Notes under the pieces: generated by a model
Told to the model about the DNA's origin: nothing
The model's input: only the letters and a program-made list of their open reading frames with translations
Databases searched by the model: none
Shown here: one piece after another, positions 1,948 through 23,028 of the stretch
How positions within the stretch are numbered: position 1 is the first letter of the stretch
Layout of the letters: each line of letters opens with the position of its first letter
Made by a program: the position numbers and the translations under genes
Source of the DNA: Candidatus Methylomirabilia bacterium
GTDB taxonomy: Bacteria > Methylomirabilota > Methylomirabilia > Rokubacteriales > CSP1-6
Direction of reading: 5' to 3'
DNA length: 64,000 bases
Assembly: GCA_041492755.1 (NCBI GenBank)
Contig: JBGPXN010000002.1
Location: 14,883-78,882 of the forward strand

Positions 1948-2028
1948 GCAATCGGCTCGTGCTGAGCTCAGGCCATCGGATCGAGTGCAGCCCCCCGGAT
2001 GCTTGCGAAAGCGGCTAATCTAGGGCGC

Positions 2029-6457: not shown

Positions 6458-6507
6458 CTCGGCGGGCGGCTATGGCGATCCGAAGGGACAGGACGACAGT
6501 GCCCGCG

Positions 6508-7122
6508 TCACTTCCGCTCGTCGTGGTGCCGGTAGCCGGGCATCTGTGCGCACTCGGCGTGACCCGCGAGCTCGACCCCCCGCTCGACGGCTTTCCCGAA
6601 GTCTTCGTTCAGCAGCGCCACGTTGATGCGCGGGCGAAAATAGTCCGCCCAAATGAATTCGGCGAACGGCTTCTGGCTCTTGTCGTAGCCACCCGCGTAG
6701 CGAACGTAGGCCGCCAGGCTGCGGTAGGGATCGTCGCGGAGCAGTTTCACGTGATGCGGTATCAAGTCGTAGAGTTGCTTGTGGCCCTGTTCGTCGTAGG
6801 GATGAACCCAGTTCTGGCGATCCATCTCGCGCCAGAAGTCCTGAAGGTCGAGGTCCGAGAGGTCCGCCACGATTTCCAATGACGCGCCGTCGATCTCCAC
6901 TTCCCACAGCGCGCGGCCCAGATGATGATGATCGATGACGAAGTACTTCTCATTGGGTCCCGTCACCACCGGGATCGGGTGCTCGGCGAGGAACTCCTTC
7001 AATCGGTGATGATGGTCACTGATCTTCGCGAGATGCGTCTTTTTCTCGTGAACTTCGATCATGCCGACGGTGATCTGAGTCGGCCGCAGGTGGTTGACGG
7101 CAATGCCGTGGATCGTTGCCAT
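6508..7122 (-). CDS. ParB-like nuclease domain protein (ParBc_2-like)
   Basis: 204-aa ORF. The N-terminal HLRPTQITVG motif and overall layout resemble the putative ParB-like nuclease family. Its GC content is markedly lower than the surroundings. Confidence 0.6.
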   Translation of the reverse strand: MATIHGIAVNHLRPTQITVGMIEVHEKKTHLAKISDHHHRLKEFLAEHPIPVVTGPNEKYFVIDHHHLGRALWEVEIDGASLEIVADLSDLDLQDFWREMDRQNWVHPYDEQGHKQLYDLIPHHVKLLRDDPYRSLAAYVRYAGGYDKSQKPFAEFIWADYFRPRINVALLNEDFGKAVERGVELAGHAECAQMPGYRHHDERK

Positions 7123-7207
7123 CTCCCCATCTCCTTGAGCTGATTCGGCTCCCTCCGAACCAAAGGTACACGACCACGGGCGGGCGGTTGAGGGCCGGCG
7201 CGCCCGC

Positions 7208-8398: not shown

Positions 8399-8590
8399 GG
8401 GAGGCTCCTCCTTGAGCGTTCTGGTCAAGATCATCGCGGGCTCTCGCCCGCCGCCGGGGGCGATGGTGGCACAAGCGCCTGCCGTCTGTATAGTAGGCGG
8501 CGCCGGAGATCCTGCTCGGCTTCGGCCCCGCGCTGTCGAAGCTGACCGACTCCGCCGCAGCGCCGCCGACCAACACGACGCACAACAGCA

Positions 8591-8812
8591 GTGCACTACG
8601 ACGATCACCCGCCACCCCCCTTCCATGTTCAATACGGCGACGACAGCGCGACAATGGATATCGACACCATGCGGATTACTGATGGTTACCTTCCGCCCCG
8701 AGTGCTCGGTTTTGTGACCGAATGGGGCGTGCGCCATCGGGCGCTGCTGCGCGAGAATTTTCGTCGCGCCCTGGAACACAGGGCGCCTGAACTCATCCCG
8801 CCCCTGGAATGA
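8591..8812 (+). CDS. DUF4160-family protein, N-terminally truncated or diverged copy
   Basis: HYDDHPPPPFHVQYGD...VTEWGVRHRALLRENF parallels the full copy at 9200..9460 but lacks the MPxVSRFxGIxVxM N-terminus. It has a GTG start. Confidence 0.55.
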   Translation: MHYDDHPPPPFHVQYGDDSATMDIDTMRITDGYLPPRVLGFVTEWGVRHRALLRENFRRALEHRAPELIPPLE

Positions 8813-8813
8813 T

Positions 8814-9071
8814 GTGCCGATGATCAAGCGCGTCGTGGAAGTTCGACCGCTCGGCGGTTATCGCCTCTTCATCAGGTTTGATGATGGCGTGCAAGGCGAA
8901 GTCGACATCGCGTCGTTCGTCCGCTTCGACGGCGTCTTCGAGCCGCTCCGCGATCCGGCCCGCTTCGCCGAAGCATTCGTCGATCTTGGTACGGTGTGCT
9001 GGCCCAACGAGCTCGACCTCGCTCCGGAAGTGCTGTACGAGAAGGTCTCGGGTCGCCCGCTCTCGGTCTAG
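8814..9071 (+). CDS. DUF2442-family protein
   Basis: 85-aa ORF starting 2 nt after the preceding stop. VVEVRPLGGYRLFIRFDDGVQGEVD...CWPNELDLAPEVLY matches the DUF2442 pattern and the paralog at 9453..9746. Confidence 0.7.
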   Translation: MPMIKRVVEVRPLGGYRLFIRFDDGVQGEVDIASFVRFDGVFEPLRDPARFAEAFVDLGTVCWPNELDLAPEVLYEKVSGRPLSV

Positions 9072-9199
9072 CTGACCCACCTCGCCGCGTCCGTTCGGAC
9101 GCGTCTCTTCAAGCGCGCCACCAGCGACCGGAACTTCTGGCTGTATCGATGATTGGACATTCTCAGCGAACGCGCGGTGCCCTACGGTCTCCCACGGCC

Positions 9200-9460
9200 A
9201 TGCCGCAGGTGAGCCGCTTCCGTGGAATCAGCGTGGAGATGTACCACGACGAGCACCCTCCGCCCCACTTTCACGTGTACTACGCGGACGAGAGCGCGAT
9301 AATCGAGATCGAGACGATGCAAATCATGGGAGGGCGATTGTCACCGCGCATACATCGGCTGGTCACCGAGTGGGGCCGCCGCCGCCGTGCGCAGCTACGA
9401 GAAAACTGGCGGCGCGTTGTCGCGCACGAGCCGCCGCTCTGGATCGAGCCTGATGAGTGA
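9200..9460 (+). CDS. DUF4160-family protein
   Basis: ATG 9200. MPQVSRFRGISVEMYHDEHPPPHFHVYYADESAIIEI is the canonical DUF4160 N-terminus. Confidence 0.75.
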   Translation: MPQVSRFRGISVEMYHDEHPPPHFHVYYADESAIIEIETMQIMGGRLSPRIHRLVTEWGRRRRAQLRENWRRVVAHEPPLWIEPDE

Positions 9461-9746
9461 CTGGTTGAGGACCGTCGTCGAGGTCAAGCCACTGGATGGG
9501 TACCGGGTCTTCTTGAGATTCGATGACGGCCTGGAAGGCGAGCTGGACCTCGAAGTCTTTCTCATGCCGTTCAAAGGTGTATTCGCGCCGCTCCGTGACC
9601 TCGCGCGTTTCCGCGAGGTCTTCGTTGATTGTCACACCGCATCGTGGCCGAACGGCGCCGATATCGCTCCGGAGGTCCTGTACTCCCAGGTCTCCGGTCG
9701 GCCGCTCCGCCGGCCGACCCACACTAAGGCAGAAGGTGGCCGATGA
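9453..9746 (+). CDS. DUF2442-family protein
   Basis: ATG 9453 overlaps the upstream stop (ATGAGTGA). VVEVKPLDGYRVFLRFDDGLEGELD...SWPNGADIAPEVLY. Confidence 0.75.
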   Translation: MSDWLRTVVEVKPLDGYRVFLRFDDGLEGELDLEVFLMPFKGVFAPLRDLARFREVFVDCHTASWPNGADIAPEVLYSQVSGRPLRRPTHTKAEGGR

Positions 9747-9938
9747 GGTAGAAGATCGCGCTGCGGAAGACGGACGAAGGTTACAGCGTGTCGGTCCCCG
9801 GCCTGCCGGGCTGTTTCGCAAGGTGCCACAGAGGATGAAGCCCGTGCGAACGTCCGGGACGCAATCCAGGAGTATCTGGCGGCTCGCGACCAGCTTCTGG
9901 ATGGGGCTACCGTGCGCGAGGTCGAAGTCACTACGTAG
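9743..9938 (+). pseudogene. HicB-like antitoxin pseudogene (in-frame TAG at codon 3 plus frameshift)
   Basis: Reads ATG AGG TAG AAG ATC... = MR*KIALRKTDEGYSVSVPGLPGCFA, then shifts frame at ~9812 into GATEDEARANVRDAIQEYLAARDQLLDGATVREVEVTT*. Together these reconstruct a typical HicB N-domain. Confidence 0.65.
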
Positions 9939-9964
9939 GCGGGTCCGGTATTACCGACACGAAC

Positions 9965-10312
9965 TCAGCGCGATCCGCTGTGAGTCTCCGCCAGCTCGAC
10001 GAACCGGCAGAGCGCGTTGATGAGCCGCATCTGATCCACCGTCCTCGCCCGTGACTCCAGCAGCCGTGGGCTTGCCACCACGTACGCCAGACACCGCGCG
10101 CGCGACACCGCCACGTTGAGGCGGTTCCGGGAAAGGAGGAACTCGAGACTGCGCGGCACGTCCTCCGCGCTCGACGTCGCCATCGAATAGAAGACCACCG
10201 CCGCCTCGCGCCCCTGGAACTTGTCGACCGTGCCGGCCTGAACGCGGCAGAGTCCGGCGGCATCCAGAGCCTGGCGCAGCCGGCGCACTTGCGCGTTGTA
10301 CAGCGCGACCAA
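9965..10312 (-). pseudogene. 3' fragment of an SF1 (Upf1/DNA2-like) helicase
   Basis: Only the last ~115 codons are present: YNAQVRRL, TVDKFQGREAAVVFYS, NRLNVAVSRAR (helicase motifs V/VI region). A TAG lies upstream in frame and there is no N-terminal ATPase domain. Confidence 0.65.
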
Positions 10313-10543
10313 TAGCTCCCGGCATGTTCTGCTACCGGGTTGCTACCAGACCACGCGGGACCACGCGGCATCACGCGAGTCACGGACTACCCCTGATCGT
10401 TGGTGTTCTGCGGGGTTTGAGGTGTCGTGGGGCGGCGTGGTGTGGTCCGAAGAGCAACGGCGGGCACCGCCGACTGATGGTGCGCCCAACCCGGCGTTAT
10501 GCTCACTCTATGTAACTCTCGATCGCTCGGTACGAATCCACCA

Positions 10544-11847: not shown

Positions 11848-11995
11848 GTACATGGGGGGCCCCGATAGGGCCCCCCATACCCCCCAAGACGCTCGGCGCG
11901 CCCCGGGGAACCCGTGGCGCGCCTCGAAACCCCTCAGCGCTCGGAGCGCCGCGGCGGAGCCGTGGCGCTCCTCGAATTCCCTCACACCCTCTGAG
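11845..11995. repeat. Intergenic repeat element copy A (three stem-loops)
   Basis: TGAGTACATGGGGGGCCCCGATAGGGCCCCCC...GGCGCGCC-N13-GGCGCGCC...GGAGCGCC-N13-GGCGCTCC...TTCCCTCACACCCTCTGAG. It is near-identical to 26115..26245 apart from a ~20-nt insertion. Confidence 0.85.
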
Positions 11996-12021: not shown

Positions 12022-12037
12022 TATGACCTACGTCATA
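12022..12037. promoter_or_regulatory. Candidate CRP/FNR-family (Dnr/NnrR-like) operator upstream of the molybdoenzyme operon
   Basis: Perfect inverted repeat TATGAC-CTAC-GTCATA. The core TGAC-N4-GTCA resembles the TTGAT/C-N4-G/ATCAA FNR-type box. Its centre lies ~76 nt upstream of ATG 12106. Confidence 0.3.
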
Positions 12038-12105: not shown

Positions 12106-13794
12106 ATGCCTCTGCGAGTGCGGCTGGTGATCCCGCTGTCGGTGGTTGCGTCGTTGGCGGCCGGGCTGTTCGGGTGTACGACCTCCCAGCCGGCACCTCC
12201 GTCGGCCGGAAGGCCGCCTGCCGTGGTCGGCGCGGGTGGGGCCGTGCAGTCGGGCACCGGCCAGCCGCTACCCGTGAAGCTCACGCCGTCTGTCACGCGG
12301 GAGGCGACGCCGGCGCTCCTCGCCCTCGGCCGGCGCGTTTACGACAAGCAATGCGCGGCCTGCCACGGCACGACGGGGCGCGGCGACGGCGAGGCCGCCT
12401 ACCTGCTGTATCCGAAGCCGCGCGACTTCACCACCGGCAACTACCGCAACGTCTCGACGTGGGAGCGCGCGCCGACGGACGAGGACCTCTACCTGACGGT
12501 CTCGCGGGGGATGCCGGGGTCGGCGATGCCGTCGTGGGGCCATCTGCCGGAGGACGAGCGCTGGGCCCTCGTCCACTACGTCAAGGGCTTCGCGGCCAAG
12601 CCGTGGACGATCGCGCCCGCCGTGGACGCCAAGGGCGAGGGGCAGACGGGCACGGGTGTCATTCGCGTCCCGCCCGCGCCGCCCTTCACCCCGGAGGCCA
12701 AGGCGCTCGCGCTCGAGCGGTACGCCGACGCGTGTGCGGCGTGCCACGGCAAGACGGGCAAGGGCGACGGCACCGAGGAGCAGAAGGACGATCTCGGCTA
12801 CCCGACGCGCCCGCGCGACCTGACCCTCGGCGTCTTCAAGGGCTCGCCCGACCCCGCGCACCTCTACCGTAGAATCGTCGCGGGGCTGCCGGGGACGCCG
12901 ATGCCGATGAGCGACTGGGCATACGGGGCCGAGGCGTGGCACCTCGTGAACCTGATCCGCTCCTGGTCGAGCGACAGCCAGCGCCGGCGCGCCGAGATGC
13001 AGAAGTTTCGCATCGTCGCCCGTCGTGTCCCGCAACTTCCGGAGCATCCCGACTCGGGGCTCTGGCGTCTGGCCCAGCCCGTGAACCTCCACGTGATGCC
13101 GCTCTGGTGGAGGACGGACCGGCCCGAGGAGATCACGGTGCGCGCGCTCCACGACGGCAGGCAGTTGGCGCTGCTCGCCGTGTGGTCAGACGCGACCCAC
13201 GACCACACGGCCATGCGGCCGCAGGACTTCCGCGACGCGGTGGCCGTGCAGTTCGCGCTCGATCCCGATCCGCCGTTCTTCGCGATGGGCAACCGCGACG
13301 GGTTCGTCAACATCTGGATGTGGAAGTCCGAGCGTCAGGCCGACATCGAGCCCGCATTCCAGGATCTCGAGAAGATCTACCCGAACCTCGGCATCGACTC
13401 CTATCCGAACTCGAAGGTGGCGGCCGCCGAGCAGCCCACGCGGCACGCGCTCACGCTCGGCTCGGACCCCGTCTTCATCAGCGGCTGGGCGGCGGGCAAC
13501 ATCGTCTCGGACCCGGCGCGGACGAGCCCGGCCGAGGACCTCGTCGCCCAGGGGTTCGGCACGCTCCGGGCCCGCCCGCGCGCCGATCAGGCGGTGGACG
13601 CGCGCGGCGTGTACGCCACCGATACCTACCGCGTGATGTTCCGTCGCGACCTGGTCGGTCGGGGCGGGCGGACGGTGACGCTCCGGCCGGGGACGACGGT
13701 GCCGGTCGGCTTCGCCGTGTGGAACGGCAGCGCCGGCGACCGCGACGGCAAGAAGTCGGTCACGATCTGGCAGGACCTCGTGCTCGAGCCGTGA
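12106..13794 (+). CDS. Gamma-type subunit: di-heme cytochrome c fused to an EB_dh (ethylbenzene-dehydrogenase-gamma-like) heme-b domain, possible lipoprotein
   Basis: ATG 12106 after AAGGAGGG. The signal ends in LFGC. There are two CAACHG heme-c motifs. The C-terminal half (VRALHDGRQLALLAVWSDATHD, DAVAVQFA, FAMGN, NIWMWKS, GFAVWNGSAGDRDGKKS) matches the EB_dh/NarI-independent gamma subunit pattern of type II DMSO-reductase enzymes. Confidence 0.8.
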   Translation: MPLRVRLVIPLSVVASLAAGLFGCTTSQPAPPSAGRPPAVVGAGGAVQSGTGQPLPVKLTPSVTREATPALLALGRRVYDKQCAACHGTTGRGDGEAAYLLYPKPRDFTTGNYRNVSTWERAPTDEDLYLTVSRGMPGSAMPSWGHLPEDERWALVHYVKGFAAKPWTIAPAVDAKGEGQTGTGVIRVPPAPPFTPEAKALALERYADACAACHGKTGKGDGTEEQKDDLGYPTRPRDLTLGVFKGSPDPAHLYRRIVAGLPGTPMPMSDWAYGAEAWHLVNLIRSWSSDSQRRRAEMQKFRIVARRVPQLPEHPDSGLWRLAQPVNLHVMPLWWRTDRPEEITVRALHDGRQLALLAVWSDATHDHTAMRPQDFRDAVAVQFALDPDPPFFAMGNRDGFVNIWMWKSERQADIEPAFQDLEKIYPNLGIDSYPNSKVAAAEQPTRHALTLGSDPVFISGWAAGNIVSDPARTSPAEDLVAQGFGTLRARPRADQAVDARGVYATDTYRVMFRRDLVGRGGRTVTLRPGTTVPVGFAVWNGSAGDRDGKKSVTIWQDLVLEP

Positions 13795-13817
13795 CGGCAC
13801 ACCGGGAGGAGACCACG

Positions 13818-16800
13818 ATGAGCGGAATGGAGCGCCGGGAGTTTCTCCGCTGGCTCGGCATCGGCGCCGGCACGGCCGCCGCGACGGAGCTCTCGCTACC
13901 GCTGAAGCTGCTCGCGGCCGCCGACCCCGACGAAAACCCGCTGGCGGGCTCGGTCGCGCGCGACTGGGAAAAGGTGTACCGCGACCAGTACACCTACGAC
14001 CGGTCGTTCGACTGGGTCTGCTCGCCGAACGACACCCACGCCTGCCGCGTACGCGCGTTCGTGCGCAACGGGATCGTCACGCGGCTCGGCAACACCTACG
14101 ACTACCAGACGTACGCCGATCTCGACGGCAACCACGCCACGGCGAACTGGAACCCGCGCCAGTGCGCCAAGGGCTACACCTTCCACCGGGTGCTCTACGG
14201 GCCCTACCGCCTCAAGCACCCGATCGTGCGCAAGGGCTGGAAGGCGTGGGCCGACGCCGGCTTCCCCGAGCTGACGGACGAGCTCCGGTCGAAGTATATG
14301 TTCGACAGCCGTGGCCAGGACGAGTTCGTCCAGATCTCGTGGGAGGACGCGTTCACCAGCATCGCGCGGGCGCTCGTCGCGATCGCCGAGCGGTACAGCG
14401 GCGAGGCGGGCAAGGCACGCCTGCTCGCGCAGGGCTACCAGCCCGAGATGGTCGAGGCGATGGGCGGAGCCGGCACGCGCACGCTCAAGATGCGGGGCGG
14501 CATGGGCCTCCTCGGGGTCATCGGCAAGTACGGGATGTACCGGCTCAACAATTCCCTGGCCCTGCTCGACGCCCAGATCCGCCGCGTGGGCCCGAAGGAC
14601 GCGAAGGCCGGCCGCAACTGGTCCAACTACACCTGGCACGGCGACCAGGCGCCGGGTCATCCGTGGGTGCACGGGCTGCAGGCGTCCGACTGCGACTTCA
14701 ACGACCTCCGCTTCTCGAAGCTCATCATCATGGACGGCAAGAACCTCGTGGAGAACAAGCTCACTGACTCCCACTGGTTCATCGAGACCATGGAGCGCGG
14801 CGCCAAGATCGTGGTGATCGCGCCGGAGTACGGTCCCCCGTCGACGAAGGCCGATTACTGGATCCCGATCCGACCGCAAACGGACGCGGCGCTCTGGCTC
14901 GGCGTCACGCGCCTCATGATCGACAACGGGTGGTACGACGAACCGTTCGTCACGGCGTTCACCGACTTTCCGCTCCTGGTCCGCACGGATACGCTGAAGC
15001 GCCTGCGGGCCCACGAGCTGTTCCCGGGCTACGTGACGACGCTCGCGCCGGACGGCCCGTCGATGAAGATCCAGGGTCTCACGGCCGACCAGCATGCCAG
15101 GCTCGGCGACTACGTGATCTGGGACGAGCAGGCCCAGACGCCACGGGCCCTCACGCGCGACGACGTCGGCGCGAGCATGCGGTCGAAAGGCCTCCAGCCC
15201 GCGCTCGAGGGAACGTGGAAGGTGAAGCTCGTCGACGGCAAGGAGGTCGAGGTCGCGACGCTCTGGACGCTCTACCGCACTCACCTGAAGGACTACGACC
15301 TGGACACCGTCGCCGAGATCACGCATGCGCCGAGGGACCTGATCCGCCAGCTCGCCCAGGACATCGGCGCGATGAAGCCGGTCTCGATCCACCAGGGCGA
15401 GGGGATCAACCACTGGTTCCACGCGACCGAGATGAACCGCGCGGCGTACCTGCCGCTCATGCTCACGGGGAACATCGGCAAGCCCGGCGCGGGCTGCCAC
15501 ACCTGGGCGGGGAACTACAAGGCCGCCCTGTTCCAGGGCTCGGCCGAGACCGGGCCGGGCTTCAAGGGCTGGGTGGCCGAGGATCCGTTCCACCCCAACC
15601 TCGATCCCGCCGCGCACGGGCGCGCCGTCGAGACCCACGCGTACACGAAGGACGAGGAGCCCGCGTACTGGAACCACGGCGACCTCGCGCTGATCGTGAA
15701 CACGCCGAAGTTCGGCCGCCGGAACTTCACGGGTGACACCCACATGCCGACGCCGAGCAAGGCGATCATCTTCAGCAACGTCAACTTGATCAACAACGCC
15801 AAGTGGGCGTACGGCATCATCAAGAACGTGAACCCCAAGGTGGAGATGATCTGCGCGATCGACCTCCAGATGACGGCGTCGATCGAGTACGCGGATATCG
15901 CGCTGCCGGCCAATAGCTGGCTCGAATTCGAGGACCTGGAGATCACGGCTTCCTGCTCGAATCCATTCCTGCAGATCTGGAAGGGCGGCATCCCGCCGGT
16001 CTTCGACAGCCGCGACGACCTGATGATCCTGGCCGGGATCGCGCAGGCGCTGGCCGAGGTGACCGGCGACCGGCGCTTCGCCGACTACTTCAAGTTCGCG
16101 CTCGAGGGCAAGCGCGCGGTCTACATCCAGCGGCTGCTGGACACGTGCACGACCACGGCCGGCTACCGGCTCGACGATGTCATGGCCGGCAAGTACGGGC
16201 CTCCCGGTGGCGCGCTCATGCTCTTTCGCACGTATCCGCGCATCCCGTTCTGGGAGCAGGTCCACGACTCCCTGCCGTTCCACACCGACACCGGGCGGCT
16301 GCACGCCTACGCCGACGTCCAGGAGGCGATCGACTACGGCGAGAACTTCATCGTTCACCGCGAAGGCCCGGAGGCGACGCCGTACCTGCCGAACGTCATC
16401 GTGTCGTCCAATCCCTGGATCCGCGCCGAGGACTACGGCATCCCCCTCGGCGCCGAGCACTGGGACGAGCGGACGATCCGCAACGTCAAGCTGCCGTGGA
16501 GCCAGGTGAAGGGGACGAAGAACTTCCTCTGGGAGAAGGGCTTCCGCTTCTACTGCCTCACGCCGAAGACCCGCCACCGGGTCCACTCGAGCTGGTCGAA
16601 CGTGGACTGGCACATGCTGTACGACTCGAATTTCGGCGACCCGTACCGCCTGGACAAGCGGGCGCCGTCGGTTGGCGAGCACCAGTTGCACATGAACCCG
16701 CAGGCGGCGCGCGACCTGGGCGTCAACGATGGTGACTACGTGTACGTGGACGCGAATCCCGCCGACCGGCCGTATCTGGGCGCCCGGCCCGACGACCCGT

Positions 16801-17264
16801 TCTACCGCGTGGCCCGCTGCATGCTGCGGGTGAAGTACAACCACGCGTATCCGTACAACTGCGTGATGATGAAGCACGCGCCGTTCATCGCGACCGAGCG
16901 GAGCGTCAAAGCCCACGAGACGCGGCCCGACGGCCGCGCGCTGTCCGAGAATACCGGCTATCAGGCGAACCTGCGCTACGGCTCGCAGCAGTCGGTCACC
17001 CGCAACTGGCACATGCCGATGCACCAGACCGACACCCTCTTCCACAAGTCCAAGGCCTTCATGAGCTTCCTCTTCGGGGGCGAGGCGGACAACCACGCGG
17101 TGAACACGGTCCCGAAGGAGACGCTCGTGAAGGTCACCAAGGCCGAGGATGGCGGTCTCGGCGGCAAGGGTATCTGGGCGCCGGCGACCACGGGCTTCAC
17201 CCCGGACAACGAGAACGACTTCATGAAGCGCTACATCGCCGGCGACCTCTACCGGAAGGCCTAG
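13818..17264 (+). CDS. Tat-exported molybdopterin alpha subunit, type II DMSO reductase family (NarG/NxrA-like)
   Basis: ATG 13818 after GGGAGGAG. It has the twin-arginine signal MSGMERREFLRWLG and an N-terminal C-x3-D-x3-C...C Fe-S motif (CSPNDTHAC at 14019..14045, then NPRQC). YTWHGDQAP aligns with the NarG WYCD(222)LPP Mo-ligand Asp region. It is 1148 aa long. Confidence 0.85.
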   Translation: MSGMERREFLRWLGIGAGTAAATELSLPLKLLAAADPDENPLAGSVARDWEKVYRDQYTYDRSFDWVCSPNDTHACRVRAFVRNGIVTRLGNTYDYQTYADLDGNHATANWNPRQCAKGYTFHRVLYGPYRLKHPIVRKGWKAWADAGFPELTDELRSKYMFDSRGQDEFVQISWEDAFTSIARALVAIAERYSGEAGKARLLAQGYQPEMVEAMGGAGTRTLKMRGGMGLLGVIGKYGMYRLNNSLALLDAQIRRVGPKDAKAGRNWSNYTWHGDQAPGHPWVHGLQASDCDFNDLRFSKLIIMDGKNLVENKLTDSHWFIETMERGAKIVVIAPEYGPPSTKADYWIPIRPQTDAALWLGVTRLMIDNGWYDEPFVTAFTDFPLLVRTDTLKRLRAHELFPGYVTTLAPDGPSMKIQGLTADQHARLGDYVIWDEQAQTPRALTRDDVGASMRSKGLQPALEGTWKVKLVDGKEVEVATLWTLYRTHLKDYDLDTVAEITHAPRDLIRQLAQDIGAMKPVSIHQGEGINHWFHATEMNRAAYLPLMLTGNIGKPGAGCHTWAGNYKAALFQGSAETGPGFKGWVAEDPFHPNLDPAAHGRAVETHAYTKDEEPAYWNHGDLALIVNTPKFGRRNFTGDTHMPTPSKAIIFSNVNLINNAKWAYGIIKNVNPKVEMICAIDLQMTASIEYADIALPANSWLEFEDLEITASCSNPFLQIWKGGIPPVFDSRDDLMILAGIAQALAEVTGDRRFADYFKFALEGKRAVYIQRLLDTCTTTAGYRLDDVMAGKYGPPGGALMLFRTYPRIPFWEQVHDSLPFHTDTGRLHAYADVQEAIDYGENFIVHREGPEATPYLPNVIVSSNPWIRAEDYGIPLGAEHWDERTIRNVKLPWSQVKGTKNFLWEKGFRFYCLTPKTRHRVHSSWSNVDWHMLYDSNFGDPYRLDKRAPSVGEHQLHMNPQAARDLGVNDGDYVYVDANPADRPYLGARPDDPFYRVARCMLRVKYNHAYPYNCVMMKHAPFIATERSVKAHETRPDGRALSENTGYQANLRYGSQQSVTRNWHMPMHQTDTLFHKSKAFMSFLFGGEADNHAVNTVPKETLVKVTKAEDGGLGGKGIWAPATTGFTPDNENDFMKRYIAGDLYRKA

Positions 17265-17268
17265 CGCG

Positions 17269-17541
17269 ATGCCGTACGCCGATCCGGATCCGACCGATCC
17301 CACCGAGCTGGTGGGCGTGGAGCTGCCGGCGCACGCGGAGGCGACGCGGGACATGGCCTGGGTCTTCGCCGAGGAGTTCGCGCGCATGGGCTTCGATGGG
17401 CGCCGGATCCTCGGGCTCTTCCGCTCGCCGTTCTACGCCGGGGCCCACCAGGCCCTGCGCGCGCTCGGCGAAGCCGAGGTCCTGGCCATCATCGAGGAGT
17501 GCGTCGGCGTCTTCGGCCGCCACGGGGAGACTCGCCTATGA
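17269..17541 (+). CDS. Small conserved-looking hypothetical protein between alpha and beta subunits
   Basis: 90-aa ORF starting 4 nt after the alpha stop. Its stop overlaps the beta start (ATGA at 17538..17541). It has normal acidic/helical composition, unlike off-frame ORFs. Confidence 0.55.
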   Translation: MPYADPDPTDPTELVGVELPAHAEATRDMAWVFAEEFARMGFDGRRILGLFRSPFYAGAHQALRALGEAEVLAIIEECVGVFGRHGETRL

Positions 17542-18803
17542 CCGCCGTCCACAACTGGCAACTCGGTCGTGAGATCGCCTACCCGTACGAGGCCGCGTAT
17601 CCCGAGCGGCAATTCGCGTTCGTCTTCAACATCAACCGCTGCATCGCCTGCCAGAGCTGCACGATGGCTTGCAAGTCCACCTGGACCTTCTCGAAGGGCC
17701 AGGAGCACATGTGGTGGGCCAACGTCGAGACCAAGCCGTACGGCGGCTACCCGATGTTCTGGGACATGAAGATCCTCCAGCTGCTCGACCGCGCGAACCC
17801 GGACGGCGTGAAGTGGACGGGCGCGCCGTCGGCCGACCGCCGGAGCCCCTACGGGACGTTCGAGGGCCGCACGGTCTTCGAGGCGCAGCGGATGCTGACG
17901 CCCGACAGCGCGCGCGTCCTCGGGTATCTCCCGACCGACGAGGAATGGAACTCGCCCAACATCTACGAGGACAACCCGGTCGGTGAGCGCGGCAAGCCCG
18001 GCGAGTTCCACCGGACCGGCGCGGTGCTGCCCGAGCACAAGACGTGGTTCTTCTACCTCGCGAGGATCTGCAACCATTGCCAGTACCCGGCGTGCCTGGC
18101 CGCCTGCCCGCGCAAGGCGATCTACAAGCGGCCCGAGGACGGCATCGTCCTCATCGACCAGGCGGAGTGCCGCGGCTACCGGAAATGCGTCGAGGCCTGC
18201 CCGTACAAGAAGTCCATGTACCGGGGCAACACGCGCGTGTCCGAGAAGTGCATCGCGTGCTACCCGCGCGTCGAGGGCAAGGACCCCGAGGCGGGCGGCG
18301 TCCCGCTCGAGACGCGCTGCATGGCGGCCTGCATCGGCCACATCCGCATGCAGGGTCTCGTGAAGCTCGACCGTGACGGCACGTGGGCGGAGGACCGCCA
18401 GCATCCGCTCTACTACCTCGTCCACGTCGCGAAGGTGGCGCTGCCGCTCTATCCGCAGTTCGGCACCGAGCCCAACGGCTACTACATCCCGCCGCGCTGG
18501 GTGCCGCGCCCCTATCTCCGCCAGATGTTCGGCCCGGGCGTGGACCAGGCGATCGAGCGCTACGAGAACCCCGACCGCGAGCTCACGGCCGTGCTCCAGC
18601 TCTTCCGCCGGTCGAACAAGATGATCTTTGGCTACAAGGTCGTGGACGGGCCCAAGATTTACGAGGGAACGCTCCGCGGGCGCACGGTCACGCTCTACAA
18701 CGACACGGTGATCGCGTACGGGAAAGACGGCAAGGAGCTCTTCCGGACGACGGTCGAGGAGCCGATCTATGTCCGCGCCGCCAAGCACGCCAACTCGATC
18801 TGA
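17538..18803 (+). CDS. Four-cluster Fe-S beta subunit (NarH/NxrB-like)
   Basis: MTAVHNWQLGREIAYPYE...FAFVFNINRCIACQSCTMACKSTW, CNHCQYPACLAACP, CRGYRKCVEACP, CIACYPR. It is 421 aa long, close to the periplasmic NxrB size class as I recall it. Confidence 0.85.
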   Translation: MTAVHNWQLGREIAYPYEAAYPERQFAFVFNINRCIACQSCTMACKSTWTFSKGQEHMWWANVETKPYGGYPMFWDMKILQLLDRANPDGVKWTGAPSADRRSPYGTFEGRTVFEAQRMLTPDSARVLGYLPTDEEWNSPNIYEDNPVGERGKPGEFHRTGAVLPEHKTWFFYLARICNHCQYPACLAACPRKAIYKRPEDGIVLIDQAECRGYRKCVEACPYKKSMYRGNTRVSEKCIACYPRVEGKDPEAGGVPLETRCMAACIGHIRMQGLVKLDRDGTWAEDRQHPLYYLVHVAKVALPLYPQFGTEPNGYYIPPRWVPRPYLRQMFGPGVDQAIERYENPDRELTAVLQLFRRSNKMIFGYKVVDGPKIYEGTLRGRTVTLYNDTVIAYGKDGKELFRTTVEEPIYVRAAKHANSI

Positions 18804-19539
18804 ACCGCCGCCGGCCGGGACCGAGCTGGCACTCTGCCGGAGCGGACTCTGGGAGGCGCTGGCGCTCGGCTTCCGTCCACCGACCTCGGAGACGGTGATC
18901 CGGCTCGCCTCTTCCGAGGGCACCCGCGCCCTGGCCGCCCTCGCCGTGACCCTCGACGCCGCCGACGGCAGCGCGCTCGGGCCGCACGCCGCGGCGCTGC
19001 CGCGTCGATCCTTGTCGGCGCTCGATCTGGGCTACGGGCGCCTCTTCGGCCACACTGCGCGGGGCGCGGTGTCGGCCTACGAGACCGAGCATGGCGAGGA
19101 CTCGATCTGGGAGCCGCAGCGCGAGATGAGTGACCTCGGCGCGTTCTACCGCGCGTTTGGCCTCCGCGTCGATCCGCGGGGGCACGAGCGCCCGGACCAC
19201 ATCGCCTGCGAGTGTGAGTTCCTGCTTGTCCTCGCGCGCCGGGACGCGCGGGCCCGGGCGCTCGGTGATGCGCCCGCGCAGGAGGCGACGTGTCGCGCGG
19301 TGCGTCTGTTTCTCCGCGACCACCTCGGACGCTGGGCGCCCGCGCTCGGCGCCCGGCTCACCCGGCTCGACCCGGAGGGCTTCTATGGCGCCCTGGGTCG
19401 ACTCCTCGCGGCGTTTGTCGTCGCCGAGTGCCGGCGCGCGGGCGTCGGCGTCGGGCCCGAGTTCCTGCGCCTGCGCTCGGCCGAGCCCGACGCGACGCCG
19501 ATGGCGTGCGGGCCACTCGCCGCCGCGCCGGAGACGTGA
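18769..19539 (+). CDS. TorD/NarJ/DmsD-family redox-enzyme maturation chaperone (delta)
   Basis: 256-aa ORF after GAGGAG. YGRLFGHTARGAVSAYETEH, PDHIACECEFLLVL and LFLRDHLGRWAP are characteristic TorD-family blocks. Confidence 0.75.
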   Translation: MSAPPSTPTRSEPPPAGTELALCRSGLWEALALGFRPPTSETVIRLASSEGTRALAALAVTLDAADGSALGPHAAALPRRSLSALDLGYGRLFGHTARGAVSAYETEHGEDSIWEPQREMSDLGAFYRAFGLRVDPRGHERPDHIACECEFLLVLARRDARARALGDAPAQEATCRAVRLFLRDHLGRWAPALGARLTRLDPEGFYGALGRLLAAFVVAECRRAGVGVGPEFLRLRSAEPDATPMACGPLAAAPET

Positions 19540-19541
19540 GC

Positions 19542-20429
19542 ATGGCGCGCCTCGAGCTCGAGTGGGATCCGGCGCTCGTGGAGGGCGCCGTCCTCGCCGC
19601 GATCAGCGGGCCGACCGAGACGCGGCGGTTCCACGCGGAGCGCGATGGGCTCTACCGGATCGCCGAGCCTGAGCCCCGCGAGGCGGCGTTCGCGGCGCTG
19701 CACGCGCGCTGGTTCGTGCGTCTCGGTCTCGGCCGGCCTTTCAGTCTGGCGCTTGCGGAGCGGCCGGAGATCGCCGAGCGCTGCGGGCGCTGGCTCGTCG
19801 CGCGCGCCCGCGCCCGGCGCGACGAAGCGGCCGATCTCCTCGTGGCCTCGGGCGTCCTTCCCACGCTGCTGGTCCGGGTCACCGCGGAGACGGTCGCGAC
19901 GGCCGGGCGACTGCAGATCCTGCTCCGCCACGAGCTGCTCTGCGTGTCCGACATGCTCGACCCGCGCTTCGCCTACGCGCCGTCCCTGCGGGAGGACGCG
20001 GCCGGTGGCGCCCGCGAGCGAGTCGTGCGCGACAACTACCGTGTCCTGTGGAGCGTATTCGTGGACGGCCGGCTCCTCCGCGCGGGCCTGGCCCCGGGCG
20101 CCGTTCGCCGCGAACGCCTGCGTGAGTTCCTCGCCGCTTTTCCGCACCTGGGCGATCGCGGCGAGGCGGCCTTCGAGCGCTTCTTCGACGGGCGGGGGCT
20201 GACCCACGCCGCTCTCCTCGCCGCGGCGGCCGGGGGCCCGGACGGCACGCCGTCGCCCCGCTGCCGGCTCTGCGATCTGCCCACACCCGAGATCGAGGCC
20301 GCCGCGGAGGCGCTGCCGCACGACGTGCTGGCCGCGATCGTGCGCGACTTCCCGTCGTGGCGTCCGGCGGACGGGGTGTGTGGTCGCTGTGCGGAGCTCT
20401 ACGCGTCACGCGTGGCGATGCGCGCCTGA
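19542..20429 (+). CDS. Hypothetical protein with C-terminal CxxC...CxxC zinc-ribbon-like motif
   Basis: ATG 19542 lies 2 nt after the chaperone stop. CRLCDLP...x36...CGRCAELY sits at the C-terminus. I do not recognise the family. Confidence 0.5.
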   Translation: MARLELEWDPALVEGAVLAAISGPTETRRFHAERDGLYRIAEPEPREAAFAALHARWFVRLGLGRPFSLALAERPEIAERCGRWLVARARARRDEAADLLVASGVLPTLLVRVTAETVATAGRLQILLRHELLCVSDMLDPRFAYAPSLREDAAGGARERVVRDNYRVLWSVFVDGRLLRAGLAPGAVRRERLREFLAAFPHLGDRGEAAFERFFDGRGLTHAALLAAAAGGPDGTPSPRCRLCDLPTPEIEAAAEALPHDVLAAIVRDFPSWRPADGVCGRCAELYASRVAMRA

Positions 20430-20456: not shown

Positions 20457-21371
20457 TCAGGTCGCGGAGGTCTCGCCGTGCTGGACGAGCATCACCGGGA
20501 CGCGCGTGGCTCGCTCCACGCGCTCGGCGACGCTGCCCTTGACGATGCGTTCGAGGCCGCTCCGGCGATGGCTGGCCATCGCGATCATGGCGGGGCCCGT
20601 GGCCGCGGCTTCCTTGACGATCTCGTCGGCCGGTTCGCCGAAGCGAACGGCCAGGTCGACCTCGACCCCGTACAGGCGCTCGCCGACGCGCCGCAGGTAG
20701 GCGAGCATCTCGGCCTCGACCCGGGCCGTCTCCTGATCCGCGTAGGCGATCACGCGGTCGTCGTTCGCGCGCACCTCCCCGGGCGGCTGCGCGACGAACA
20801 GCAGGCGAACGCGTGCGCCCTCGGCCCGCGCCAGCTCGCCGACAGCCGGGAGCACCGCTTCACTGCCGGCGGCCCCGTCGAGCGGGACCAGGATCGTCGG
20901 CGGAGCGGCCTCGCGCCGGTCGGCGCCGGCCACGTCCAGGCCCGGGATTCCGAGAACCGAGGCGAACGCCCGGAGCACGTCGATCTCGGTGATGATGCCG
21001 ACGAGCCGCCCGTGCTCAACCACCGGCAGGGCCCCGATCTTCTGCTCCAGCATCTGGCGTACCGCCTCGGCGAGCGGCGCCTCGGGCTCGACGATCAGCA
21101 CACGGCGGGTCATCACCTCGCCCACGGTCAGCCGCTCGAGCAGGAAGCGGATCTCGCCGACCGAGAACGACGTCGCCGGCGACGGCAGCACCGTCCGGAG
21201 ATCTCGATCGGTGATGATTCCCACCAGGCGCCCATCGTCCATCACCGGGAGATGGCGCAGGCGCCGGAGACTCATCATCTCGTGCAGACCGGCGACCGGA
21301 GTGGTCGGAGTGACGGTGATGGGCGAGGGCGTCATCCATTCCCTGATACGCATGGCGATGATCGTCGGCAT
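20457..21371 (-). CDS. CBS-pair plus universal stress protein (USP) fusion
   Basis: Start ATG 21371 (RBS GGAGGAG) or 21353. It has two CBS motifs (HLPVMDDGRLVGIITDRDL, ALPVVEHGRLVGIITEIDV) followed by a USP domain (ILVPLDGAAGSE...MIAMASHRRSGLERIVKGSVAERV). Confidence 0.8.
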   Translation of the reverse strand: MPTIIAMRIREWMTPSPITVTPTTPVAGLHEMMSLRRLRHLPVMDDGRLVGIITDRDLRTVLPSPATSFSVGEIRFLLERLTVGEVMTRRVLIVEPEAPLAEAVRQMLEQKIGALPVVEHGRLVGIITEIDVLRAFASVLGIPGLDVAGADRREAAPPTILVPLDGAAGSEAVLPAVGELARAEGARVRLLFVAQPPGEVRANDDRVIAYADQETARVEAEMLAYLRRVGERLYGVEVDLAVRFGEPADEIVKEAAATGPAMIAMASHRRSGLERIVKGSVAERVERATRVPVMLVQHGETSAT

Positions 21372-21430
21372 CGGGCTCCTCCTCGCGCCACATCCTGCGC
21401 GAGCCGGGTGGTGCGCGGATATGACGGCGA

Positions 21431-22572: not shown

Positions 22573-23028
22573 TCAGCGCCCGGCCCGACCGCGTACGGTC
22601 AGGACGGGGCAGGGCGCCGTGCCCACCACGCGTTCCGCCACGCTCCCCAGGAACACTCGGGCCAGACCCGTCCGGCCGTGCGTGCCCATGACGATCACGT
22701 CGGCACGCTGGGACTTGGCGGCCCTGGCGATCTGGGTCGCCGCGACGCCCTCGAGCAGCAGGCCGCGCGCGCGAGTCCCGGCTTTGCGCGCGCGGGCCAC
22801 GGCCGCGTCGAGCTGCGTCTGGCCCTGCGCACGTGCCGCCCGCTGCACTTCGTCGAACGCCGCCGGCGAGACGTAGCCTTCGCCGATCATCGGTACGACG
22901 ACGGCCAGCGCGTGCACGATCAGGAGCTCGGCCTTGTCTCGGCGTGCCACTTCGATCGCGCAGTCGAATGCCCGGCGGCTCGCCGGCGAGAAGTCGGTCG
23001 GATGCAGAACGCGCCGGATCTTCATCAT
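22573..23028 (-). CDS. Universal stress protein
   Basis: RBS AGGAGG. ILHPTDFS...LIVHAL...VIVMGTHGRTGLARVFLGSVAERV is the USP signature. Confidence 0.85.
   Translation of the reverse strand: MMKIRRVLHPTDFSPASRRAFDCAIEVARRDKAELLIVHALAVVVPMIGEGYVSPAAFDEVQRAARAQGQTQLDAAVARARKAGTRARGLLLEGVAATQIARAAKSQRADVIVMGTHGRTGLARVFLGSVAERVVGTAPCPVLTVRGRAGR

What the first reader, a model, noticed from the sequence alone, without database searches (positions are those of the whole stretch)
12106..20429. Complete periplasmic type-II DMSO-reductase-family operon resembling Nitrospira/anammox-type nitrite oxidoreductase / nitrate reductase
The gene order is gamma (cytochrome c-EB_dh), alpha, small ORF, beta, TorD-like chaperone, Zn-ribbon protein.
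- Alpha is Tat-exported (RREFLRW) and 1148 aa long. It carries a C-x3-D-x3-C N-terminal Fe-S motif (Asp in place of the usual His/Cys) and the WHGDQAP block that aligns with the Asp Mo-ligand region of NarG.
- Beta is 421 aa and begins MTAVHNWQLGREIAYPYE...FAFVFNINRCIACQSC.

From memory, these sizes and motifs fit the periplasmic NxrA/NxrB class better than the Ebd/Ser/Ddh/Pcr enzymes (alpha ~900-980 aa, beta ~330-350 aa) or cytoplasmic NarGH. The direction of catalysis (nitrite oxidation versus nitrate reduction) and even the substrate cannot be read from the sequence.
Basis: partly seen in the sequence, partly recalled or inferred. Interest (0 to 1): 0.7.

Follow-up and report, generated by a model that had tools for sequence, protein, structure and literature searches.

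The report
Rokubacterial periplasmic NXR-type nitrite/nitrate oxidoreductase operon
This is an intact six-gene operon for a periplasmic molybdenum enzyme of the same clade as the nitrite oxidoreductase of Nitrospira-type nitrifiers and anammox bacteria, found in an uncultured Rokubacteria/Methylomirabilota genome; it is one copy of a gene cassette spread across many uncultured phyla, and whether it oxidises nitrite or reduces nitrate there is still unknown.

Summary
Window 12106-20429 (+) holds six tightly packed genes:
- a lipoprotein-type dihaem-c::haem-b gamma subunit;
- a Tat-exported 1148-aa alpha subunit;
- a 90-aa ORF;
- a 421-aa four-cluster beta subunit;
- a TorD/NarJ chaperone;
- a 295-aa zinc-ribbon protein.

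Alpha and beta match the solved Kuenenia NXR over their full lengths (1759 and 597 bits; 61% and 60% identity). PcrA, EbdA and NarG score only 117-190 bits. All published NXR cofactor residues are conserved: FS0 ligands Cys68/Asp72/Cys76/Cys116, Asn71, the Mo ligand Asp276, and the haem-b ligands Met394/Lys550.

In a rooted tree alpha sits inside the NXR clade in 100/100 bootstraps, away from haloarchaeal pNarG and ClrA.

The source is a Methylomirabilota (Rokubacteria) MAG. The same six-gene order recurs in most of the 80 best loci, drawn from at least 586 species genomes in more than 10 phyla. Both unannotated ORFs are therefore real, conserved components with no Pfam family and no known fold.

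The direction of catalysis cannot be settled. Regulatory hints and host ecology lean slightly towards cytochrome-c-dependent nitrate reduction.

NXR genes in Rokubacteria have been reported since 2017, so this is a new member of a known kind. Interest is moderate.

The parts
12023..12036 (.). Perfect 14-bp palindrome ATGACCTACGTCAT (5-N4-5, FNR/CRP-type layout), about 70-83 nt upstream of the gamma start codon. Candidate regulator site.
   Evidence: Sequence read; position. The core TGA[CT]N4[AG]TCA occurs upstream of gamma in 10 of 60 loci, against about 1.9 expected. Function is inferred, not shown.
12106..13794 (+). Gamma subunit (562 aa) of the 'alternative NxrC' type. Features: signal peptide with lipobox LFGC (Cys24, nt 12166-12177); two CxxCH haem-c motifs (nt 12352-12366 and 12733-12747); EB_dh haem-b domain (nt 13126-13758) with Met394/Lys550 ligands. 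No transmembrane helix.
   Evidence: Pfam Cytochrome_CBB3/Cytochrom_C and EB_dh. Residues 74-287 match the dihaem cytochrome 6h5l_B (132 bits) and residues 344-561 match KsNXR-C 7b04_C (95 bits, 34% identity). The Met/Lys ligands align with KsNXR-C Met155/Lys305. Two haem-c motifs occur in 63 of 64 orthologs, and none has a C-terminal extension.
13818..17264 (+). Alpha catalytic subunit (1148 aa, NxrA-type). Features: Tat signal RREFL (nt 13833-13847); FS0 motif C68-x3-D72-x3-C76 (nt 14019-14045) plus C116; substrate Asn71; Mo ligand Asp276 (nt 14643-14645).
   Evidence: 7b04_B scores 1759 bits over residues 4-1145. Identity to KsNxrA is 61% over 956 columns. Residues checked. Inside the NXR clade in 100/100 bootstraps.
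17269..17541 (+). Small cytoplasmic protein (90 aa): conserved N-terminal MPYxDPDPxDP peptide followed by a four-helix domain. No signal peptide. Its stop overlaps the beta start (ATGA). Probably an assembly factor or small accessory subunit.
   Evidence: No Pfam or NCBIfam hit. 405 homologs, all 'hypothetical'. Present between alpha and beta in most of the 80 loci at 35-79% identity. D10, P11, E36, G41, F51 and G67 are conserved in at least 90% of 72 orthologs. AF2 core pLDDT is above 95. No PDB fold match.
17538..18803 (+). Beta Fe-S subunit (421 aa, NxrB-type), with 15 Cys in four ferredoxin-type groups (three [4Fe-4S] and one [3Fe-4S]). No signal peptide, so export is presumed to be by Tat hitch-hiking with alpha.
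   Evidence: 7b04_A scores 597 bits over the full length at 60% identity. Pfam Fer4_11. Cys positions.
18769..19539 (+). TorD/NarJ-family cytoplasmic maturation chaperone (256 aa; the start codon is uncertain because it overlaps the end of beta by 35 nt).
   Evidence: Pfam Nitrate_red_del, 4e-18. Best NCBIfam hit is DMSO_red_II_cha at 93.8 bits, below the 152.3 cut-off. Conserved downstream of beta in the loci.
19542..20429 (+). ORF6 (295 aa), a cytoplasmic protein of unknown function. It has an HExxH-like motif (H130-E131-L-L-C134, D137, D140; nt 19929-19961) and a C-terminal 4-Cys zinc ribbon (C241, C244, C280, C283; nt 20262-20390). Probably the 'putative zinc finger' protein of NXR gene clusters.
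   Evidence: No Pfam or NCBIfam hit. Present after the chaperone in most loci that extend that far. Motif frequencies in 52 orthologs: H130 37, E131 49, H134 44, D137 52; ribbon in 45 of 52. AF2 pLDDT 92.4. No significant PDB match; the weak top hits are HExxH zinc domains. The family has 1086 clusters at 50% identity. Lücker 2013 lists a zinc-finger protein in the conserved NXR gene set.

Best explanation
The operon encodes a periplasmic, Tat-exported nitrite:nitrate oxidoreductase of the NXR clade (Nitrospira/Nitrospina/anammox type) in a Methylomirabilota ('Rokubacteria') bacterium.

Proposed mechanism (inferred by homology to the Kuenenia structure):
1. In the cytoplasm, the TorD-like chaperone helps load Mo-bis-MGD and the Fe-S clusters into alpha/beta and holds the Tat signal. 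The 90-aa protein and the HExxH/zinc-ribbon protein probably assist in this step.
2. The folded alpha-beta pair is exported by Tat.
3. Gamma is exported separately by Sec, lipid-anchored at Cys24, and receives one haem b and two haems c.
4. Nitrite and nitrate are interconverted at the molybdenum, which is ligated by Asp276 with Asn71 positioning the substrate.
5. Electrons move through FS0 (3Cys/1Asp), FS1-FS4 in beta and the Met/Lys-ligated haem b, then through the two fused c-haems.

The complex has no quinol-binding membrane subunit. It therefore exchanges electrons only with the periplasmic or membrane c-type cytochrome pool: a cytochrome c oxidase if it oxidises nitrite, or bc1/alternative complex III if it reduces nitrate.

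The enzyme is expected to be reversible, like Kuenenia NXR. I judge nitrate reduction under low oxygen slightly more likely than nitrite oxidation as its main role in this organism, but this is not shown.
For: Shown by tools:
- Full-length matches of alpha, beta and the gamma C-terminal half to KsNXR-A/B/C, far above any other solved enzyme.
- 61% and 60% identity for alpha and beta.
- Every cofactor and active-site residue named for KsNXR is conserved.
- A Tat motif on alpha only, a lipobox signal on gamma, and no signal peptide on beta, the chaperone, the small ORF or ORF6.
- NXR-clade placement in 100/100 bootstraps.
- The six genes are syntenic in most of 80 loci from more than 10 phyla.
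- Gamma always has two haem-c motifs and never a membrane helix.
- The only recurrent neighbours are Moco-biosynthesis genes and an Rrf2 regulator.

From the literature:
- Kuenenia NXR catalyses both directions.
- 'alt_NxrC' proteins, a TorD-like chaperone and a zinc-finger protein belong to the gene set conserved among Kuenenia, Nitrospira and Nitrospina.

Hints towards reduction:
- An FNR/CRP-type palindrome upstream, with its core enriched about five-fold across loci.
- Flanking Usp and CBS-Usp genes, and an AFOR gene in the window.
- HemN and cytochrome b next to the cassette in a few loci.
- Hosts include Syntrophobacteraceae, Omnitrophota and groundwater Planctomycetota.
- Cultured nitrate respirers (Thermogutta, Limisphaera) carry distant homologs.
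Against: - No activity, expression or physiology data exist for this organism or for any member of this cassette clade. Every host is a MAG.
- The closest characterised relatives are all nitrite-oxidising enzymes.
- The high-potential Met/Lys haem b and c-type haems suit an oxidative chain just as well.
- The window holds no oxidase, bc1 complex, nitrite reductase or N-oxyanion transporter that could fix the direction.
- The FNR-like site is present in only 10 of 60 loci and has not been tested.
- I could not verify that the Thermogutta or Limisphaera enzymes belong to this cassette clade. They were not among the loci at 70% identity or above, and no supplementary sequences were available.
- My tree is neighbour-joining and lacks isolate Nitrospira and Nitrospina sequences.
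Confidence: 0.85

Rival explanations
1. The physiological role is nitrite oxidation. The organism is an unrecognised, probably mixotrophic, nitrite oxidiser that passes electrons from nitrite through the fused c-haems to a cytochrome c oxidase.
For: - Alpha and beta lie in the same clade as bona fide NXRs and share the FS0 Asp and the high-potential Met/Lys haem b.
- Cytochrome c is the expected acceptor of nitrite-derived electrons in nitrite oxidisers.
- Genome-resolved soil studies count such genes as NXR and find nxrAB highly transcribed in floodplain soils where Rokubacteria are active.
- Becraft 2017 and Suarez 2023 raise this possibility for Rokubacteria and Planctomycetota.
Against: - The window has no terminal oxidase, CO2-fixation genes or reverse-electron-transport genes.
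- The cassette occurs in many lineages that are likely anaerobes or heterotrophs.
- There is an FNR-like box and Usp neighbours.
- The transcript data are not resolved to this clade.
- The cassette clade is separate (83/100) from the group containing Kuenenia and the Nitrospinota MAG.
Confidence: 0.3
2. The physiological role is dissimilatory nitrate reduction. It is a cytochrome-c-dependent periplasmic nitrate reductase fed by bc1/ACIII, comparable in wiring to selenate reductase or haloarchaeal pNar, and used under low oxygen.
For: - Kuenenia NXR reduces nitrate in vitro.
- An FNR/CRP-type palindrome lies upstream and its core is enriched across loci.
- Usp/CBS-Usp flank the operon and an AFOR gene is in the window.
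- An Rrf2 regulator occurs in 21 loci, and HemN and cytochrome b neighbours occur in some.
- The host range is dominated by non-nitrifier phyla.
- Thermogutta and Limisphaera isolates with distant Nar/Nxr homologs respire nitrate.
- Rokubacteria are predicted to be heterotrophs with anaerobic respiration.
Against: - All hints are indirect.
- Only 26-30% identity to the experimentally established periplasmic NarG of Haloferax.
- No nitrite reductase or bc1 complex is linked in this window.
- Membership of the cultured organisms' enzymes in this clade is unverified.
Confidence: 0.45
3. The enzyme acts on a different substrate, for example chlorate/perchlorate, selenate or an organic compound as in the Ebd, Ser, Clr and Pcr enzymes. 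It only resembles NXR.
For: - It belongs to the broad type-II DMSO-reductase group, whose members use many substrates. The best NCBIfam hits are the DMSO_red_II models.
- No activity has been measured for this clade.
Against: - 61% identity to KsNxrA against 22-30% to ClrA and pNarG, and 117-190 bits to PcrA, EbdA and NarG.
- The substrate-positioning Asn71 is retained; it is Ile in EbdA.
- No chlorite dismutase or hydrocarbon-pathway genes lie nearby.
- 100/100 bootstrap support for the NXR clade.
Confidence: 0.05

Closest known systems
Kuenenia stuttgartiensis NXR-ABC (PDB 7B04; Chicano et al. 2021, PMC8387239)
   Same: - Alpha is 1148 aa in both, at 61% identity. Beta is 60% identical over its full length. 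The gamma haem-b domain is 34% identical.
- Both have a Tat signal on alpha, FS0 with 3Cys/1Asp ligation, a substrate Asn, a Mo-ligand Asp and a Met/Lys haem b.
- Neither has a quinol-binding membrane subunit.
   Different: - Gamma here is fused to an N-terminal dihaem cytochrome c and carries a lipoprotein signal. KsNXR-C is a soluble haem-b-only protein.
- There is no NXR-T tubule subunit, bd-like oxidase or cupredoxin gene here.
- The gene order differs (gamma first), and a 90-aa gene sits between alpha and beta.
- The host is not an anammox bacterium.
Nitrospira / Nitrospina periplasmic NXR gene sets, including 'alt_NxrC' (Lücker et al. 2010, 2013; PMC3578206)
   Same: - Same enzyme class.
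- Nitrospina encodes alt_NxrC proteins that combine 1-3 haem-c sites with the DMSO-reductase haem-b domain.
- The conserved gene set also includes a TorD-like chaperone and a putative zinc-finger protein.
   Different: - In Nitrospina the operon is nxrABC with a haem-b-only NxrC, and the alt_NxrC and accessory genes are encoded elsewhere. Here the alt_NxrC type is the only gamma and all accessory genes form one six-gene operon.
- I had no isolate sequences, so identity to these enzymes was not measured.
- The host is not a known nitrite oxidiser.
Putative NXR of uncultured Rokubacteria, KSB1, Planctomycetota, Acidobacteriota, Binatia, Omnitrophota etc. (Becraft 2017, PMC5712423; Suarez 2023, PMC10732223; database entries 'nitrate oxidoreductase subunit alpha')
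   Same: This is the group the window belongs to. Alpha identity is 70-92%, with the same six-gene order. The function is equally untested.
   Different: Nothing essential differs. The window copy has Cys instead of His at ORF6 position 134 and a lipobox on gamma that only part of the clade shares.
Haloarchaeal periplasmic nitrate reductase pNarGH (Haloferax mediterranei) and chlorate reductase ClrABC
   Same: Tat-exported type-II DMSO-reductase-family alpha/beta subunits, an EB_dh-type gamma and a TorD-like chaperone. Electrons are supplied through bc-type complexes or cytochrome c rather than NarI.
   Different: Only 22-30% identity, with shorter alpha subunits (914-984 aa). These enzymes fall outside the NXR clade in 100/100 bootstraps.

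Membership tests
Periplasmic NXR clade (Nitrospira/Nitrospina/anammox-type NxrABC) | Alpha is homologous over its full length to a characterised NxrA and much closer to it than to Nar, Ebd, Pcr or Clr | tested here: met
   7b04_B scores 1759 bits over residues 4-1145 at 61% identity. The next best are PcrA 190, EbdA 175 and NarG 117 bits. The NXR clade has 100/100 bootstrap support.
Periplasmic NXR clade (Nitrospira/Nitrospina/anammox-type NxrABC) | Twin-arginine signal on alpha (periplasmic orientation) | tested here: met
   MSGMERREFLRW..., with the RREFL motif at residues 6-10. No signal-peptide predictor was available, so the motif was read directly.
Periplasmic NXR clade (Nitrospira/Nitrospina/anammox-type NxrABC) | FS0 ligated by 3 Cys and 1 Asp (C-x3-D-x3-C ... 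C), a substrate Asn, and a Mo-ligand Asp | tested here: met
   C68, N71, D72, C76, C116 and D276 correspond to KsNxrA C67, N70, D71, C75, C115 and D275. They are invariant in alignment A1.
Periplasmic NXR clade (Nitrospira/Nitrospina/anammox-type NxrABC) | Beta with three [4Fe-4S] clusters and one [3Fe-4S] cluster, homologous to NxrB | tested here: met
   7b04_A scores 597 bits over the full length at 60% identity. There are 15 Cys in four groups.
Periplasmic NXR clade (Nitrospira/Nitrospina/anammox-type NxrABC) | Gamma with an EB_dh-type haem-b domain and Met/Lys ligation | tested here: met
   EB_dh, 5.6e-25. 7b04_C scores 95 bits. M394 and K550 align with Met155 and Lys305.
Periplasmic NXR clade (Nitrospira/Nitrospina/anammox-type NxrABC) | Catalyses nitrite oxidation in vivo (the host grows on, or gains energy from, nitrite) | not testable with these tools
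   The host and all close relatives are MAGs. The window holds no diagnostic respiratory genes.
NCBIfam 'DMSO reductase family type II enzyme' subfamily models (TIGR03479/03478/03477/03482) | Score at or above the curated cut-off for each subunit model | tested here: not met
   These are the best-scoring NCBIfam models, but all fall below their cut-offs: alpha 349 vs 984.75, beta 241 vs 480.7, gamma 111.4 vs 169.85, chaperone 93.8 vs 152.3. The operon is related to the curated subfamily but not a member of it.
Membrane-bound respiratory nitrate reductase NarGHI | narG/narH equivalog scores, a cytoplasmic alpha without a Tat signal, and the dihaem-b membrane subunit NarI | tested here: not met
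   narG 146 vs cut-off 1084; narH 170 vs 524. A Tat motif is present. There is no NarI-like gene in the operon or the window.
Ebd/Ser/Ddh/Clr/Pcr enzymes | Equivalog-level similarity to EbdA/B or close relationship to ClrA/PcrA; alpha of about 900-980 aa | tested here: not met
   EbdA 191 vs cut-off 2000; EbdB 197 vs 740. PcrA 190 bits. ClrA 22-28% identity and outside the clade. Alpha is 1148 aa.

The most novel reading that the evidence does not exclude
The six-gene cassette (dihaem-c::NxrC, NxrA, 90-aa protein, NxrB, TorD-like chaperone, HExxH/zinc-ribbon protein) may be a self-contained, horizontally spread 'plug-in' module. It would connect nitrite/nitrate interconversion directly to the cytochrome c pool of any host. 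In oxic soils and aquifers it would make Rokubacteria, Acidobacteriota, Binatia, Planctomycetota and others significant, unrecognised nitrite oxidisers. The two unannotated proteins would be NXR-specific maturation factors of new folds.
Probability: 0.2. Interest if true: 0.75.

Novelty: new member of a known kind. Interest (0 to 1): 0.35.

Why it matters
NXR is the only known biological source of nitrate, and nxrA/nxrB are widely used as marker genes for nitrite oxidation. This operon belongs to a very large set of NXR-clade genes carried by uncultured, non-nitrifier phyla: at least 586 species-level genomes.

If these enzymes oxidise nitrite, nitrification budgets in soil and groundwater miss major players. 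If they reduce nitrate, then nxr gene or transcript counts overestimate nitrite oxidation, and this is a widespread, overlooked cytochrome-c-dependent nitrate reductase.

The conserved cassette also points to two uncharacterised proteins, a 90-aa helical protein and an HExxH/zinc-ribbon protein. These are candidates for missing factors in heterologous production of NXR.

The individual finding, however, repeats what databases and papers already report for Rokubacteria.

Tried and rejected
1. Looked for respiratory partners in the 64-kb window. Pfam scans of about 45 ORFs found only housekeeping genes, Usp proteins, a sigma-54 activator, AFOR and one multihaem cytochrome. There is no oxidase, bc1 complex, nitrite reductase or transporter.

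2. Looked for operon paralogs in the window. None were found.

3. Clustered all flanking ORFs of the 80 loci to find a conserved redox partner. Only Moco-biosynthesis genes and an Rrf2 regulator recur. Cytochrome b appears in 4 loci, HemN in 3 and a cupredoxin-like protein in 7.

4. Ran sequence and fold searches for ORF6 and the small ORF against the PDB. There were no significant hits, with Foldseek E > 0.1 and TM < 0.3.

5. Searched for names for ORF6 family members. All are 'hypothetical'.

6. Tested the plasmid-borne mobility idea. No plasmid carries a close relative; the best is 37% identity.

7. Ran sigma-70 promoter and intrinsic terminator scans. They were uninformative in this 70% GC DNA.

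8. Tried to link the cultured nitrate reducers (Thermogutta, Limisphaera) to the cassette. No sequences or supplements were available.

9. Removed the L003 alpha in the first tree, which was an ORF-picking artefact.

10. Found nothing on sequence determinants of direction in a review on the NAR/NXR interplay.

11. Set aside Methylomirabilis 'Nxr' papers, which concern the unrelated cytoplasmic Nitrobacter-type enzyme.

Full report
**Observation**

The window is about 70% G+C, so mechanical ORF lists are crowded. Coordinates and start codons:
- gamma 12106-13794
- alpha 13818-17264
- small ORF 17269-17541
- beta 17538-18803
- TorD-like 18769-19539
- ORF6 19542-20429

All start with ATG, have GC3 of 0.87-0.95 and are separated by at most 23 nt or overlap. 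The next gene (CBS-Usp, 20457-21374) is on the opposite strand. This is one operon.

The quoted motifs are present: RREFL at alpha 6-10, CSPNDTHAC at 68-76, and WHGDQAP at 273-279.

**Identity of the enzyme**

Pfam and NCBIfam place the proteins in the type-II DMSO-reductase group. However, every curated NCBIfam model is missed by a wide margin (DMSO_red_II, EbdA-D, narG/H/J).

Comparison with solved structures is decisive. Alpha matches Kuenenia stuttgartiensis NXR-A (7B04) at 1759 bits over residues 4-1145. PcrA scores 190, EbdA 175 and NarG 117. Beta matches NXR-B at 597 bits, against 189 for PcrB. Identities are 61% for alpha over 956 columns and 60% for beta.

The Kuenenia paper names the following residues: FS0 ligands C67/D71/C75/C115, the substrate-positioning N70, the Mo ligand D275, and the NXR-C haem-b ligands Met155/Lys305. 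The window proteins have C68/D72/C76/C116, N71 and D276, and M394/K550 at the aligned positions. Beta has exactly 15 Cys in four groups.

The outgroups were Alicycliphilus ClrA, Haloferax mediterranei periplasmic NarG and a Natronococcus homolog, fetched. Results:
- The clade holding the window, its relatives and Kuenenia NxrA is recovered in 100/100 replicates.
- The window groups with two other Methylomirabilota in 100/100.
- The clade of loci sharing the window's gene order is recovered in 83/100.
- Kuenenia, a Nitrospinota MAG and three unnamed MAGs form a basal grade.

**Source and distribution**

The exact alpha protein lies on a contig of NCBI assembly GCA_041485185.1. Homologs at 91-92% identity are labelled Candidatus Rokubacteria, with the name 'nitrate oxidoreductase subunit alpha'. 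Homologs at 81-83% identity come from KSB1, Acidobacteriota, Binatia and Limnocylindrales.

The best 80 (70-91% identity) are all MAGs. They come from Methylomirabilota, Binatia, Syntrophobacteraceae, Acidobacteriota, Latescibacterota, Eiseniibacteriota, Myxococcales, Omnitrophota, many Planctomycetota, Verrucomicrobia, Sumerlaeota, Nitrospinota and Ca. Anammoxibacter.

No sequenced plasmid carries a close relative.

**A conserved six-gene cassette**

I ran tblastn of the six window proteins against the 80 loci. The same order (gamma, alpha, small ORF, beta, chaperone, ORF6) appears wherever the contig is long enough. The exceptions are three loci with gamma downstream and ORF6 upstream, and two Anammoxibacter loci without the small ORF. 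Both unannotated ORFs are therefore genuine, conserved genes.

*Gamma.* Residues 74-287 best match the dihaem cytochrome c partner of the Kuenenia HAO-like enzyme (6H5L chain B, 132 bits). Residues 344-561 match NXR-C (6H5L identified). In 64 orthologs gamma has two CxxCH motifs in 63 cases and never extends beyond the haem-b domain, so there is no membrane helix. A lipobox (LFGC in the window) is present only in part of the clade. This architecture corresponds to the 'alternative NxrC' proteins described for Nitrospina.

*Small ORF.* It has 405 homologs, all 'hypothetical', and no Pfam family. It has a conserved N-terminal MPYxDPDPxDP peptide and a confidently predicted four-helix domain. There is no structural match.

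*ORF6.* It has no Pfam family and belongs to a large family of 1086 clusters at 50% identity. The model is confident, with pLDDT 92, but has no significant structural match. The weak top hits are HExxH zinc-binding domains. Across 52 divergent orthologs the segment H130-E131-x-x-H134...D137...D140 is largely conserved; the window has Cys at 134. A C-terminal 4-Cys ribbon is present in 45 of 52. It is probably the 'putative zinc finger' protein that Lücker et al. list in the gene set shared by Kuenenia, Nitrospira and Nitrospina. I could not test this directly.

None of beta, the chaperone, the small ORF or ORF6 has a signal peptide. The last three therefore most likely act in cytoplasmic maturation (inference).

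**Context and direction**

The rest of the window encodes the following:
- AFOR
- small DUF2442/DUF4160 genes
- a helicase fragment
- an iron permease
- an ACT protein
- Usp and CBS-Usp proteins
- alanine dehydrogenase
- a sigma-54 activator
- acetyl-CoA synthetase
- peptidases
- a multihaem cytochrome c
- several very large surface proteins

There is no oxidase, bc1/ACIII, nitrite reductase, transporter or second copy of the operon.

Across the 80 loci the recurrent neighbours are:
- MoaA (22 loci)
- an Rrf2-family regulator just upstream of gamma (21 loci)
- MoaC-MogA, FmdE-MobB and MoeA
- a membrane Fe-S/TPR protein (10 loci)
- a cupredoxin-like protein (7 loci)
- cytochrome b (4 loci)
- HemN (3 loci)

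A perfect palindrome, ATGACCTACGTCAT, lies 70-83 nt upstream of gamma. Its core, TGA[CT]N4[AG]TCA, occurs upstream of gamma in 10 of 60 loci against about 1.9 expected.

These features, the host range and the nitrate-respiring isolates with distant homologs lean towards low-oxygen nitrate reduction. None is decisive. The enzyme's closest characterised relatives oxidise nitrite in vivo and are reversible in vitro.

**What is known already**

NXR genes in Rokubacteria were noted by Becraft et al. 2017. Comparable 'putative Nxr' genes in Planctomycetota/KSB1 MAGs were described by Suarez et al. 2023, who also could not assign a direction. Genome-resolved soil studies routinely count them as NXR. 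The alt_NxrC architecture and the accessory gene set were described in 2013.

What I did not find stated in the papers I read is that these parts form one fixed six-gene operon, including a 90-aa gene, across more than ten phyla. That is an incremental observation, not a new kind of system.

**Verdict**

This is a new member of a known, though functionally unresolved, kind. Interest is moderate. The interesting open question, whether this is nitrite oxidation or nitrate reduction in non-nitrifier phyla, is real. This window alone does not make it more testable than existing data do.

Noticed in passing
window 12023-12036: A perfect 14-bp palindrome, ATGACCTACGTCAT, with FNR/CRP-type 5-N4-5 layout, lies upstream of the operon. 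Its core motif is enriched about five-fold upstream of gamma across related loci (10 of 60 loci against about 1.9 expected).
   Followed up: partly
window 11853-11877: A GC-rich hairpin, GGGGGGCCCCGATAGGGCCCCCC, sits immediately after the stop of the ACT-domain gene. It may be a terminator or insulator between that gene and the NXR operon. The consensus terminator scan did not pick it up because it has no T tract.
   Followed up: no
window 1999-3849 (+): A complete aldehyde:ferredoxin oxidoreductase (AFOR_N + AFOR_C, a tungsten/molybdenum pterin enzyme typical of anaerobic metabolism) is encoded about 8 kb upstream of the NXR operon.
   Followed up: partly
window about 6000-10400: G+C dips to 0.64 against about 0.70 elsewhere. 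The stretch carries a ParB-like nuclease, small DUF2442/DUF4160 genes (toxin-antitoxin-like) and a truncated AAA_12/UvrD_C helicase fragment (9965-10312, -). It may be a remnant of a mobile or defence islet next to the operon.
   Followed up: no
window 20457-21374 (-) and 22573-23028 (-): A CBS-Usp fusion and a stand-alone universal stress protein flank the 3' end of the operon, with alanine dehydrogenase between them. A sigma-54 activator without an obvious receiver domain follows at 24264-25556 (-).
   Followed up: partly
window 47669-48877 (+): A multihaem c-type cytochrome (weak MtrC/MtrF-like, c554 and c552 Pfam hits), unlinked to the operon. It could be part of the periplasmic electron-transfer pool.
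   Followed up: no
window 31524-36440 (-), 51600-55013 (+), 58460-63112 (+): Three very long ORFs of 1638, 1137 and 1550 aa. The first has only a FecR domain. The second has almost no Pfam signal. The third carries MBG, He_PIG and Ig-like repeats and follows a radical-SAM/SPASM gene (57177-58286). The first two overlap shorter high-GC3 ORFs on the opposite strand, so their reality is uncertain.
   Followed up: no
loci L003, L004, L039, L046, L047, L051, L059, L060, L064, L066, L068, L069 and others, about 0.1-0.8 kb upstream of gamma: An Rrf2-family (NsrR/IscR-like, three-Cys) transcriptional regulator sits immediately upstream of gamma in 21 of the related loci. It is absent from this window, where an ACT-domain gene occupies that position.
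   Followed up: partly
L082 (Natronococcus occultus plasmid 2, NC_019976.1, 115169-118348): A 1068-aa ORF 37% identical to the window alpha is not listed in the PLSDB gene table, although its beta and TorD-like neighbours are. It is either an annotation gap or a pseudogene call in a haloarchaeal NXR/Nar-like cluster intermediate between the NXR clade and pNarG.
   Followed up: no
loci L045, L047, L059, L068, L069 (Planctomycetota/Sumerlaeota), between the small ORF and beta: These loci have an extra 0.7-kb spacer between the small ORF and beta that the window lacks. Only an antisense, low-complexity ORF clustered there, so its content is unresolved.
   Followed up: no
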